Positions 61 through 1,261 of a stretch of 9,411 nucleotides of DNA are shown here, one piece after another. The DNA is from Escherichia coli (GTDB lineage: Bacteria > Pseudomonadota > Gammaproteobacteria > Enterobacterales > Enterobacteriaceae): assembly GCF_003334335.1 (NCBI RefSeq), contig NZ_QOWQ01000066.1; one strand, written 5' to 3'. Every line of letters begins with the position of its first letter. Position 1 is the first letter of the stretch. A program made the translations under genes and the position numbers. The notes under the pieces are model-generated. The model saw nothing but the letters and a program-made list of their open reading frames with translations, was not told where the DNA came from and did not search any database.

Positions 61-432
61 TCATCCGTCGTTGACACCTCCGGTCTGGCAGTGTGTGCAG
101 TACTGCTCCCCATAATAATCGTGGTGACATTGTCTGCAGTGCCAGCTGGCTTTACGCACCACGGGTAAGGCATCCGGTACGAATTGCTGCAGACGTTTAA
201 TCAACTGTATTTCTCTGCGCTCCGGCCTGACATAAGGGCACTGTTGACCGTGCTCTGTCAGCCTGTCGTCAGTGTGTTCAAACCAGGGAAGTTCAGTGTC
301 GTATTGCGGATGGTATCTGAGTGCACTGCCACACAAGTGGCAGGTGTAGTGAGCATAAGGTGCGGCCTGTGCAGTACGGGCGCCCGTCAGACGTCCGTTG
401 CCATCAAGAGCGATAAAGGATTTTGCGTACAT
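61..432 (-). CDS. Hypothetical cysteine-rich (zinc-ribbon-like) protein, ~123 aa
   Basis: ORF 61..438 (-). Start placed at the second in-frame ATG (432) because AAGGA lies 8 nt upstream of it on the minus strand; the first ATG (438) is only 2 nt from the SD. Paired Cys/His motifs (CHLCGS ... CRQCHH ... CTHC) suggest metal binding. Same strand and just downstream of the YagK/YfjJ-like gene. No family recognised. Confidence 0.5.
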
Positions 433-691
433 AGTCATATTCCTTAGCCGCCAGACGACACGCAGGCAACAGCCGTCCCGGTACGGGCAGCGTGGTCAGG
501 GTGTGAATGGCGGTTCAGTTAAAATCTGGACTGGAGTTTGGGTAAAGCAGGCTGGTTGCTGTTACAGCACTGTGGTTGTCACACAATGGAACACTGACGT
601 AAAAAACAGTCAGTGGGCGAGTGGATACATCGTTGCCGCCAGACAACAACCCATACTTTTGGTTTGCCGGATATTGGCGCGCCAGTCGTGC

Positions 692-1261
692 TCAACTCCG
701 GCTACAGCCAAAATTGCGCTCACCGGTGCAGTGAGCTTTGGTATACTCCTTCGCCAGATAGTCAGCACGTTCCAGCACTTGCTGAAAGCCGGTGTCATCA
801 TTACGCGCCAGCCACACCGCCGGCCAGGCCGGAAAATGCACCAGCGTGGCATGGCACCCGACATCCACTCCCAGGGCACTGCACCACGCCTGTTTAATCA
901 TCCCGGCCAGAGACTCCGGAGCGCGGTAATCACCGGCACGACACCAGGTATCCCGGTTGACCAGCAGCATCAGGTGATAGTGTTTTTTACCTTTGCACTC
1001 CCCAAACTCCCGGGCCCAGACGTAATGCAGGGTTGTGGGATGCACGCGTTTACCTTCCCGATGCTTACGTTTCTGGTAAGCGTCGATTCGGGCTTTCAGG
1101 GCATTGATGAAGCGGGATATCACAGCTGCGTCCGTTGCTGCCGGTACATCCGGGAGACGCAGGTCAACCCGCAATGCCGTCAGGCGGGGATGAACATTCA
1201 GTGCGTGCCGCACCGTCTCACGAATACGTTGCTGCCAGAAGGGGTTGTATTTGTAGGTCAT
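692..1261 (-). CDS. YagK/YfjJ-family protein (inovirus Gp2-like domain family found in CP4-type islands)
   Basis: ORF 692..1297 (-). Start placed at internal ATG 1261 (MTYKYNPFWQQ...), which has GGAG 7 nt upstream (revcomp of 1262..1273 = ggagatttaacc); the ORF-track start at 1297 has no SD. Protein-like composition with a basic central region (KRKHREGKRVH). Family assignment is from recall of YagK/YfjJ-like sequences, not a search. The + strand ORF 398..1267 is treated as antisense artefact. Confidence 0.6.
   Translation of the reverse strand: MTYKYNPFWQQRIRETVRHALNVHPRLTALRVDLRLPDVPAATDAAVISRFINALKARIDAYQKRKHREGKRVHPTTLHYVWAREFGECKGKKHYHLMLLVNRDTWCRAGDYRAPESLAGMIKQAWCSALGVDVGCHATLVHFPAWPAVWLARNDDTGFQQVLERADYLAKEYTKAHCTGERNFGCSRS

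What the first reader, a model, noticed from the sequence alone, without database searches (positions are those of the whole stretch)
61..1261. Possible two-gene module: YagK/YfjJ-like protein plus downstream cysteine-rich protein
The two genes are co-directional, about 260 bp apart, and both have good SD sequences. The second has three CxxC/CxxH-type pairs consistent with a zinc ribbon. Whether they form one operon or a functional pair is unknown. The YagK/YfjJ family itself has no established function.
Basis: inference. Interest (0 to 1): 0.4.

Follow-up and report, generated by a model that had tools for sequence, protein, structure and literature searches.

The report
Island nuclease gene beside IS-broken zinc-ribbon gene
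Two real, already-annotated genes of unknown function on a common E. coli genomic island sit next to each other in many related bacteria but are probably not one operon, and here the second gene has been cut by an insertion sequence; the most unexpected item is a conserved hairpin-forming leader in front of the zinc-ribbon gene.

Summary
Both ORFs are real and lie on the minus strand. Gene 1 (692-1261) is a 189-aa YagK/YfjJ protein with an intact HUH and YxxK motif and a Rep-like predicted fold. Gene 2 (61-438; conserved start at 432) is a DUF7828 + Zn_ribbon_11 protein with two predicted zinc sites.

- Window 1-76 is the end of IS100. It replaces the last 13 codons of gene 2 and separates it from an overlapping paralogue, ZR3. 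This allele occurs in at most 18 of 5426 E. coli genomes; the intact junction occurs in 3058.
- The pair is part of a larger syntenic block found across Enterobacterales: HUH gene, (AlpA), conserved leader, ZR2, ZR3, (degenerate HUH paralogue).
- In most relatives an alpA gene lies between the two genes. The roughly 175 nt upstream of ZR2 are conserved and contain a hairpin with compensatory changes that matches no Rfam family. ZR2-ZR3 therefore looks like its own unit.

Co-occurrence is one-sided. About 21 of 22 evaluable ZR loci have an HUH gene upstream. Among 9 lineages of YagK orthologues, ZR is intact in 4, decayed in 3 and absent in 2. K-12 YfjJ and YagK have no ZR neighbour.

Function remains unknown. 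Interest is modest; the genes are annotated families. The leader hairpin is the only candidate novelty.

The parts
1..76 (.). Terminal 76 bp of IS100 (IS21 family), inserted into the 3' end of the zinc-ribbon gene
   Evidence: RefSeq records with the same junction annotate IS100 istA/istB next to it. The alignment to the uninterrupted locus L001 breaks between bases 76 and 77. The junction is present in at most 18 of 5426 genomes.
61..438 (-). Zinc-ribbon gene ZR2 as it reads in the window (125 aa). Native coding sequence is 77..432; the last 4 codons and the stop come from IS100.
   Evidence: Pfam DUF7828 plus Zn_ribbon_11. The intact protein is 133 aa, WP_000270962.1. Invariant C31, C34, H53, C65, C99, C102, C112 and C115. 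AF2 model has pLDDT 90.
441..445 (-). Shine-Dalgarno AAGGA of ZR2, 8 nt before the conserved ATG at 432
   Evidence: Read directly from the sequence. Conserved as UAAGGA in nearly all loci.
433..518 (-). Conserved leader with a roughly 70-nt imperfect hairpin: basal CCGCCA/UGGCGG, CACAC/GUGU, apical CUGCCCG-UAC-CGGGACGG
   Evidence: 83-90% nucleotide identity to genera whose ZR2 protein is only about 60-65% identical. Covariance model R1 finds it upstream of the ZR gene or its remnant in every locus with a hit, and in only 2 of 80 pattern-matched viral stretches, both E. coli-like. 88.6% of cells are paired and 11 of 19 pairs show compensatory changes; 0 of 500 shuffles reach this. No Rfam match. 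The folding z-score for this copy is only -0.2.
440..613 (-). Whole conserved upstream region of ZR2 (about 175 nt)
   Evidence: blastn gives 72-78% identity over 171-178 nt to the HUH-to-ZR2 spacers of Salmonella diarizonae and Enterobacillus.
592..615 (-). Small hairpin CACTGAC-TGTTTTTTAC-GTCAGTG with a T-rich loop, inside the gap
   Evidence: Found by the hairpin scan. The same motif occurs in the Salmonella locus L003 and the Citrobacter amalonaticus locus L034. It was not scored as an intrinsic terminator.
439..691 (.). Intergenic gap of 253 nt, with no ORF of note and no alpA remnant
   Evidence: ORF list. tblastn with AlpA-like proteins finds nothing. The RNA fold of the whole gap has z = -0.54.
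692..1261 (-). YagK/YfjJ-family HUH (Rep-like) nuclease gene, 189 aa
1270..1273 (-). Shine-Dalgarno GGAG of the HUH gene, 8 nt before the ATG at 1261
   Evidence: Read directly from the sequence.
1398..1425 (-). Promoter-like site TTTACA-16-GAAAAT upstream of the HUH gene
   Evidence: Consensus scan, 9 of 12 matches. The number of sites found does not exceed chance.

Best explanation
The finding is a fragment of the conserved backbone of a CP4-57/CP4-44-type integrative island of E. coli. The window also carries AlpA, a YfjI-like DUF3987 protein, a YeeP-like GTPase and Ag43. Two neighbouring but probably separate expression units are present.

Unit 1 is a stand-alone HUH nuclease of the YagK/YfjJ family. 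Its metal-binding HUH and catalytic YxxK motifs are intact. By inference it nicks and rejoins single-stranded island DNA through a 5'-phosphotyrosine link, to replicate or mobilise the excised island.

Unit 2 is a translationally coupled pair of paralogous proteins, ZR2 and ZR3, each with two predicted zinc sites. It is preceded by a conserved leader of about 175 nt that contains a covarying hairpin ending just before the ribosome-binding site. By inference, the pair forms a nucleic-acid-binding heterodimer with a regulatory or accessory role for the island, and the leader controls its expression after transcription.

In this window IS100 has inserted into codon ~120 of ZR2. This removes its native C-terminal tail and uncouples it from ZR3, so unit 2 is probably defective here.

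Shown: gene identities, motifs, predicted folds, synteny, the IS insertion, leader conservation and covariation. Inferred: nicking activity, the heterodimer, nucleic-acid binding and the regulatory role of the leader.
For: - Identity and context. The window is 99.4-99.9% identical to an annotated ETEC chromosome apart from IS insertions.
- HUH motifs are invariant across both HUH families, and the predicted fold matches Rep nucleases.
- ZR2 and ZR3 overlap by 13 nt and are 31% identical. The overlapping pair recurs in Salmonella, Hafnia, Mixta, Siccibacter, Yokenella and Enterobacter.
- alpA lies between the HUH gene and ZR2 in most relatives.
- The leader is found upstream of a ZR gene or remnant in every locus with a hit, independent of which gene precedes it.
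- Covariation: 0 of 500 shuffles reach the observed values, and slid controls give 25-41% paired against 88.6%. A conserved U.G wobble points to the sense strand.
- IS100 breakpoint.
Against: - No transcription data exist here, and no consensus promoter is predicted in the gap. Read-through from the HUH gene is therefore not excluded.
- The E. coli copy of the hairpin folds no better than shuffled sequence (z -0.2).
- RNAalifold on an unguided alignment found no structure.
- The pair counts come from an alignment fitted to the model.
- No nick site for the HUH protein was identified.
Confidence: 0.5

Rival explanations
1. The HUH gene and the zinc-ribbon gene form one operon and a dedicated functional pair, with the zinc-ribbon protein acting as an origin-recognition or accessory subunit of the nuclease.
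For: The genes are co-directional, and no intrinsic terminator is predicted between them on the minus strand. An HUH-family gene lies upstream of ZR2 in about 21 of 22 evaluable loci, even though two very different HUH families fill that slot. A degenerate HUH paralogue also often follows ZR3.
Against: The gap is 253 nt here and 160 to about 1500 nt elsewhere, and usually holds an alpA gene. The upstream 175 nt belong with ZR2. ZR is missing or decayed beside many YagK/YfjJ homologues, including K-12 YfjJ and YagK. The only fusion protein found is a one-off deletion product.
Confidence: 0.2
2. ZR2/ZR3 are cargo rather than backbone. They would be the first genes of the island's variable region, for example an uncharacterised anti-phage or anti-defence module. 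They would sit next to the HUH gene only because HUH-AlpA marks the edge of a cargo hotspot.
For: Downstream of HUH-AlpA(-ZR) the content is variable and rich in defence genes: OLD/UvrD (Gabija-like), methyltransferase/ResIII, TIR and HsdM. In K-12, AbpAB lies next to yfjJ. ZR genes are often truncated or lost.
Against: There are no PADLOC or PHROG matches. The ZR position and leader are fixed relative to the backbone across many genera, unlike typical swapped cargo. A backbone-like degenerate HUH gene and F8/F11 genes often follow ZR3.
Confidence: 0.2
3. The conserved hairpin is a DNA element rather than an RNA leader. It could be a single-strand hairpin used as the nick or binding site of the HUH nuclease (an origin of replication or transfer), or a single-strand initiation site. 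The HUH gene and the hairpin, not the ZR gene, would then be the functional pair.
For: HUH enzymes typically recognise hairpins next to their genes. This is general knowledge of Rep, relaxase and TnpA systems, and the fold matches are to RepB, TnpA-REP and NS1. The invariant GGGACGG and GCCUGCG stretches look like a protein recognition site. The hairpin persists where ZR has decayed.
Against: The hairpin sequence does not change with the HUH family; the same hairpin follows F2-type and F4-type genes. It keeps a fixed distance to the ZR2 ribosome-binding site. A conserved U.G wobble and many G.U variants favour RNA. Apical loops of 3-4 nt leave little room for a loop nick site.
Confidence: 0.1

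Closest known systems
E. coli K-12 YfjJ (CP4-57) and YagK (CP4-6); Pfam PF11726 YagK_YfjJ_C, named 'inovirus Gp2 family protein' in RefSeq
   Same: Same Pfam family (1.1e-47). The proteins are 36-39% identical by tblastn, or 37-40% in the multiple alignment. HUH and YxxK motifs are the same. The island context with AlpA and a YfjI-like DUF3987 protein is the same.
   Different: The K-12 paralogues are 208 aa and have no DUF7828 neighbour and no leader element. No function has been published for either in the papers searched.
HUH rolling-circle Rep nucleases (SIRV1 ORF119, parvovirus NS1, pMV158 RepB, inovirus gpII/ORF2-G2P)
   Different: Sequence identity is 9-14%. The gene lies on a chromosomal integrative island with no phage or plasmid genes around it. 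No helicase domain is present and no origin has been identified. Activity is untested.
Pfam DUF7828 + Zn_ribbon_11 (formerly DUF3279; 'Ybl85' or 'putative zinc ribbon protein')
   Same: The window protein is a member of this family, 100% identical to the RefSeq protein over residues 1-120.
   Different: It is truncated and chimeric at the C-terminus because of IS100. The family has no known function, no solved structure and no fusion partners.
P2 Ogr / P4 Delta zinc-finger late-gene activators of satellite phages
   Same: Both are small zinc-binding proteins on P4-like or CP4-like integrative elements. Delta is a tandem duplication, and ZR2/ZR3 are tandem paralogues. This resemblance comes from memory and is a lead only.
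   Different: The Pfam scan at E up to 10 and the PHROG scan show no Ogr_Delta match. The cysteine spacing and size differ.

Membership tests
YagK/YfjJ family (PF11726) | Significant match to the family profile over the full domain | tested here: met
   i-Evalue 1.1e-47, model positions 1-170 of 170.
HUH endonuclease superfamily | HUH motif: two His separated by a hydrophobic residue, followed by hydrophobic residues | tested here: met
   The sequence is KKHYHLMLLV. H94 and H96 are invariant in 29 sequences, including the distant F4 family.
HUH endonuclease superfamily | Catalytic tyrosine motif (YxxK) C-terminal to the HUH motif | tested here: met
   The sequence is DYLAKEYTK. Y168, K171 and K175 are invariant.
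HUH endonuclease superfamily | Rep-type alpha/beta fold | tested here: met
HUH endonuclease superfamily | Site-specific ssDNA nicking with a covalent 5'-phosphotyrosine intermediate at a defined origin | not testable with these tools
   No nick site was identified. No hairpin is conserved immediately downstream of the gene across loci.
Inovirus (filamentous phage) replication module | Neighbouring inovirus genes (ssDNA-binding protein, coat proteins, Zot-like assembly ATPase) | tested here: not met
   The window and annotated relatives carry AlpA, YfjI-like, GTPase, Ag43 and IS elements only. The only PHROG hits are families of unknown function.
DUF7828 / Zn_ribbon_11 zinc-ribbon proteins | Both Pfam domains and the eight conserved metal ligands | tested here: met
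   DUF7828 at 2e-31 and Zn_ribbon_11 at 7e-6. C31, C34, H53, C65, C99, C102, C112 and C115 are conserved and all retained in the window copy.
DUF7828 / Zn_ribbon_11 zinc-ribbon proteins | Full-length, uninterrupted gene | tested here: not met
   IS100 replaces the last 13 codons.
Single operon (bicistronic YagK-ZR unit) | Adjacent, co-directional genes with a short spacer and no intervening gene in relatives | tested here: not met
   The genes are co-directional. However, the gap is 253 nt here, and alpA and/or 160 to about 1500 nt intervene in relatives.
Single operon (bicistronic YagK-ZR unit) | No internal promoter or terminator; a continuous transcript | tested here: inconclusive
   The consensus scan finds neither in the gap on the minus strand. 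Only weak promoter-like matches occur. No expression data are available.
Obligate gene pair (co-occurrence) | Each partner is found beside the other in most genomes | tested here: not met
   ZR to HUH: about 21 of 22 loci. HUH to ZR: intact in 4 of 9 orthologue lineages, decayed in 3, absent in 2, and absent beside K-12 YfjJ and YagK.
Known RNA families (Rfam 15) | Covariance-model match of the leader at 433-518 | tested here: not met
   No match at E up to 1 anywhere in 1-1700. The only hit in the window is IS102 RNA at 7808-8044.
Known anti-phage defence systems (PADLOC) | Profile match of either protein | tested here: not met
   No families matched any of the five proteins tested.

The most novel reading that the evidence does not exclude
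The hairpin-containing leader would be a previously undescribed cis-regulatory RNA, or the recognition site of the ZR proteins. HUH nuclease, AlpA, leader and ZR2/ZR3 together would form an uncharacterised replication or mobilisation control module. That module would govern the excised state of CP4-type islands, which carry defence hotspots and are present in more than half of E. coli genomes.
Probability: 0.15. Interest if true: 0.6.

Novelty: new member of a known kind. Interest (0 to 1): 0.33.

Why it matters
CP4-57/CP4-44-type islands are among the most common accessory elements of E. coli and its relatives. They carry adhesins, toxin-antitoxin pairs and anti-phage systems. How they replicate or move after excision is poorly understood.

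A conserved, apparently active HUH nuclease beside AlpA is a concrete candidate for that step. The ZR2/ZR3 pair with its conserved leader is a candidate regulator. All of these can be tested with simple biochemistry.

As it stands the finding is mainly an annotation refinement. Both genes are known families of unknown function, and this copy of the second gene is broken by an insertion sequence.

Tried and rejected
- NCBIfam, PHROG and PADLOC scans gave no functional name.
- PDB sequence searches found nothing for either protein.
- A profile search of 1.84 billion representatives found only 274 small stand-alone relatives and no informative fusions.
- The one YagK-ZR 'fusion' protein (P0125) is a single deletion product joining YagK to the C-terminal part of ZR3.
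- A conserved hairpin just downstream of the HUH gene, as a possible nick site, was sought across 14 loci and not found.
- The gap as a degraded alpA gene was rejected by tblastn.
- The gap as a whole shows no unusual RNA stability (z -0.54).
- RNAalifold on a plain MAFFT alignment of leaders gave no structure because the 5' arm was misaligned. A model-guided alignment was needed.
- A loose DNA pattern scan of viral contigs returned mostly chance hits. Only 2 of the 80 listed stretches (of at least 120 returned) were real, and both were E. coli-like.
- No conserved sigma-70 promoter was found upstream of the leader.
- Literature searches for YfjJ, YagK, DUF7828, Ybl85, DUF3279 and PF11726 found only annotation mentions.

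Full report
**What is in the window**

The six-frame ORF list and the sequence show both genes of the finding on the minus strand. The upstream gene is 692..1261. It encodes 189 aa, with ATG at 1261 and GGAG 8 nt upstream. The downstream gene reads 61..438 (125 aa). The gap between them is 253 nt (439..691).

Megablast places the region in E. coli. 3463 of 5426 complete genomes carry at least 80% of window 1-1500. RefSeq names the two genes 'inovirus Gp2 family protein' and 'putative zinc ribbon protein'.

The rest of the window is 99.4-99.9% identical to an annotated ETEC chromosome apart from IS insertions. It carries an AlpA-like regulator (2880-3086), a gene for a conserved hypothetical protein, a YfjI-like DUF3987 gene (4105-5658, minus strand), a YeeP-like GTPase gene (6780-7691) and the start of Ag43. 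This is the backbone of a CP4-57/CP4-44-type integrative island.

**Corrections to the observation**

Window 1-76 is the terminus of IS100. Alignment with an uninterrupted locus (L001) breaks exactly between bases 76 and 77. In L002 the missing 3' end of the gene reappears on the far side of IS100.

The native protein is 133 aa. In the window its last 13 residues are replaced by 4 IS-encoded residues. All eight conserved metal ligands are retained.

The native gene overlaps, by 13 nt, a third gene encoding a 144-aa paralogue. The two proteins are 31% identical (E 2e-15). I call them ZR2 and ZR3. ZR3 lies beyond IS100 and outside the window.

The IS100 junction occurs in at most 18 of 5426 genomes. 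The intact ZR2/ZR3 junction occurs in 3058.

The conserved start is the ATG at 432, 8 nt from AAGGA. The ATG at 438 is only 2 nt from it.

**The upstream protein**

Pfam gives YagK_YfjJ_C at 1.1e-47 and REP_ORF2-G2P at 2.5e-5.

I aligned 29 sequences. They span close orthologues, K-12 YfjJ and YagK (37-40% identical), and a second, very distant 189-aa family that I call F4 (16-21% identical). F4 matches REP_ORF2-G2P at 6e-5.

The invariant residues are D33, W82, E85, H94, H96, W126, Y168, K171 and K175. These correspond to the HUH and YxxK motifs of rolling-circle Rep nucleases.

The protein is therefore very probably an active stand-alone HUH nuclease. Its substrate is unknown. It is not part of a filamentous phage, because no inovirus genes are nearby.

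**The zinc-ribbon protein**

Pfam gives DUF7828 (residues 4-89, 2e-31) and Zn_ribbon_11 (residues 96-120, 7e-6). Conserved residues predict a CCHC site (C31, C34, H53, C65) and a CCCC ribbon (C99, C102, C112, C115).

The family is small. In 1.84 billion representative proteins there are 274 clusters at 50% identity, all stand-alone and at most 238 aa. The named hits and all 26 genome loci are Enterobacterales or Enterobacterales-like sequence under another label.

No NCBIfam, PHROG or PADLOC family matches. The papers searched contain nothing beyond annotation labels.

**Co-occurrence, starting from the zinc-ribbon gene**

A scan of one genome per species found 26 loci in about 15 genera. Two further protein look-ups added Salmonella and Serratia loci. 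I mapped conserved gene families around each locus.

- About 21 of 22 loci with enough upstream sequence have an HUH-family gene upstream in the same orientation. This is either a YagK orthologue or paralogue, or an F4 protein.
- ZR3 follows ZR2, overlapping or closely spaced, in most loci. It is sometimes frameshifted.
- A degenerate YagK-like gene often follows ZR3. It has lost both histidines and the YxxK motif. It matches Pfam UCP030791 and YagK_YfjJ_C at 9e-5.
- In about half of the loci an AlpA-like gene lies between the HUH gene and ZR2. The spacing between the two ranges from 160 to about 1500 nt.

**Co-occurrence, starting from the HUH gene**

K-12 YfjJ is followed by the convergent defence genes abpB and abpA. 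K-12 YagK is followed by yagJ. Neither has a ZR gene or a leader.

For the 189-aa orthologue group (63-69% identical to the window protein) I looked up nine lineages.

| Lineage | What follows the HUH gene |
|---|---|
| E. coli | leader, ZR2, ZR3 (no alpA between) |
| Enterobacter hormaechei | AlpA, leader, ZR2, ZR3, degenerate HUH |
| Serratia marcescens | AlpA, leader, ZR2, truncated ZR3 |
| Klebsiella | AlpA, leader, a single ZR3-type gene, then variable defence cargo |
| Enterobacter cloacae complex | AlpA, leader, frameshifted ZR |
| Cedecea | AlpA, leader, 29-codon ZR2 remnant |
| Rouxiella | AlpA, leader, degenerate 53-codon ORF starting MKYAKPFIA, then Gabija-like genes |
| Pectobacterium | no leader, no DUF7828 gene |
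| A Salmonella type | no leader, no recognisable DUF7828 gene |

The block is therefore ancestral to this island lineage. The ZR part is often decayed.

**The conserved leader, found in passing**

The last ~82 nt before ZR2 are 83-90% identical between E. coli and genera whose ZR2 proteins are only about 60-65% identical. About 175 nt (window 440-613) align at 72-78% with the HUH-to-ZR2 spacers of Salmonella diarizonae and Enterobacillus.

Individual folds show a common long imperfect hairpin with an invariant GGGACGG on the 3' side of the apex. It ends 1-3 nt before the ribosome-binding site.

I built a covariance model from 13 sequences.

- It finds the element upstream of the ZR gene or its remnant in every locus with a hit.
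- It finds nothing near K-12 yfjJ or yagK.
- In 678 kb of pattern-matched viral contigs it finds only two copies, both E. coli-like.

On the model-fitted alignment, 88.6% of cells pair and 11 of 19 pairs show changes on both sides, in 47 cells. None of 500 shuffles reaches these values. Slid controls give 25-41% pairing. Examples are CCCG/CGGG against CCCU/AGGG, and GCUG/CGGC against UCUG/CGGA. A conserved U.G wobble indicates the sense strand.

Caveats:
- The alignment is fitted to the structure.
- RNAalifold on an unguided alignment found nothing.
- The folding z-score is strong only for divergent copies (-2.5 to -4.7). It is weak for the E. coli type (-0.2).
- There is no Rfam match.

The hairpin sequence does not change with the type of HUH gene upstream. 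This argues against it being the nuclease's substrate.

**Operon or not**

The consensus scan finds no promoter or intrinsic terminator on the minus strand in the gap. It finds one promoter-like site upstream of the HUH gene (1425-1398), within chance expectation. My own scan upstream of the leader in 24 loci gives only weak matches, at most 8 or 9 of 12.

The comparative evidence favours separate units. A variable upstream gene, an intervening alpA and a leader that travels with ZR2 all point that way. Only transcript mapping can settle it.

**Interpretation**

The best-supported reading (confidence about 0.5) has two parts.

- A stand-alone HUH nuclease that, by inference, nicks island DNA for replication or mobilisation after excision.
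- A separately expressed, translationally coupled ZR2-ZR3 pair with a structured leader. By inference it acts as a nucleic-acid-binding regulator or accessory factor.

In this window the second unit is broken by IS100.

The rivals are:
- a true operon and dedicated pair (0.2);
- ZR2/ZR3 as cargo at the edge of a defence hotspot (0.2);
- the hairpin as a DNA site for the nuclease (0.1).

**Novelty and score**

Both genes belong to existing Pfam families and are annotated in thousands of genomes. I therefore rate the finding as a new member of a known kind, with modest interest (0.33).

Three points are not in the databases or papers I could search. One is the recognition that the YagK/YfjJ family keeps intact HUH catalytic motifs. 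Another is the extended syntenic block. The third is the unreported conserved leader hairpin. Each gives a testable lead into how these very common islands behave.

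Noticed in passing
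window 433-518 (minus strand); also L003-L034, L037-L043, L166-L172 upstream of the ZR genes: A conserved hairpin leader of about 85 nt with compensatory base changes sits directly before the zinc-ribbon gene's ribosome-binding site. It matches no Rfam family. It persists even where the ZR gene has decayed (Rouxiella, Cedecea).
   Followed up: yes
window 1-76: This is the end of IS100 (IS21 family), inserted into codon ~120 of the zinc-ribbon gene. It is a rare allele, found in at most 18 of 5426 complete E. coli genomes.
   Followed up: yes
window 7808-8044 (+): Rfam match to IS102 RNA (RF00124), 67.8 bits, E 6e-10. It lies between the YeeP-like GTPase gene and the Ag43 gene.
   Followed up: no
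window 1458-1661 (+): A 67-aa ORF divergent from the HUH gene has an N-terminal CxxC...CxxC zinc ribbon and a hydrophobic C-terminal segment. RefSeq annotates it as a hypothetical protein (WP_001297219.1). Only weak PHROG matches to families of unknown function were found.
   Followed up: partly
window 592-615 and 447-460 / 635-648: A small hairpin with a T-rich loop (CACTGAC-TGTTTTTTAC-GTCAGTG) is conserved in the Salmonella locus L003 and the Citrobacter amalonaticus locus L034. A 14-nt direct repeat (GCCGCCAGACRACA on the plus strand) occurs at both ends of the gap; one copy forms the 3' arm of the leader hairpin.
   Followed up: partly
L003 6852-7391, L013 5906-6454, L166 5151-5717 (relatives); weak fragments at L002 7009-7358: A degenerate YagK-like paralogue (Pfam UCP030791) often follows ZR3 in relatives. 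It has lost both HUH histidines and the YxxK tyrosine. Only fragments remain in E. coli.
   Followed up: partly
L008 5256-5825, L010, L012, L023, L033: A second, very divergent 189-aa HUH family (motifs EDHHYHAHVVF and LAYMAK) replaces YagK upstream of ZR2 in several genera. It matches Pfam REP_ORF2-G2P at 6e-5.
   Followed up: partly
L037, L041-L043, L035: The region downstream of HUH-AlpA(-ZR) holds variable anti-phage cargo: OLD/UvrD Gabija-like genes, methyltransferase/ResIII, TIR, HsdM, and AbpAB in K-12. This suggests a defence hotspot at this island position.
   Followed up: no
window about 2016-2140 (minus strand): A frameshifted remnant of an Hha/YmoA-family gene, 62-71% identical in two pieces to the intact gene of L002.
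   Followed up: partly
L021-L023, L026-L028 (Budvicia aquatica DSM 5075): At least six separate copies of the ZR locus occur in one genome. This implies a multi-copy island family in that species.
   Followed up: no
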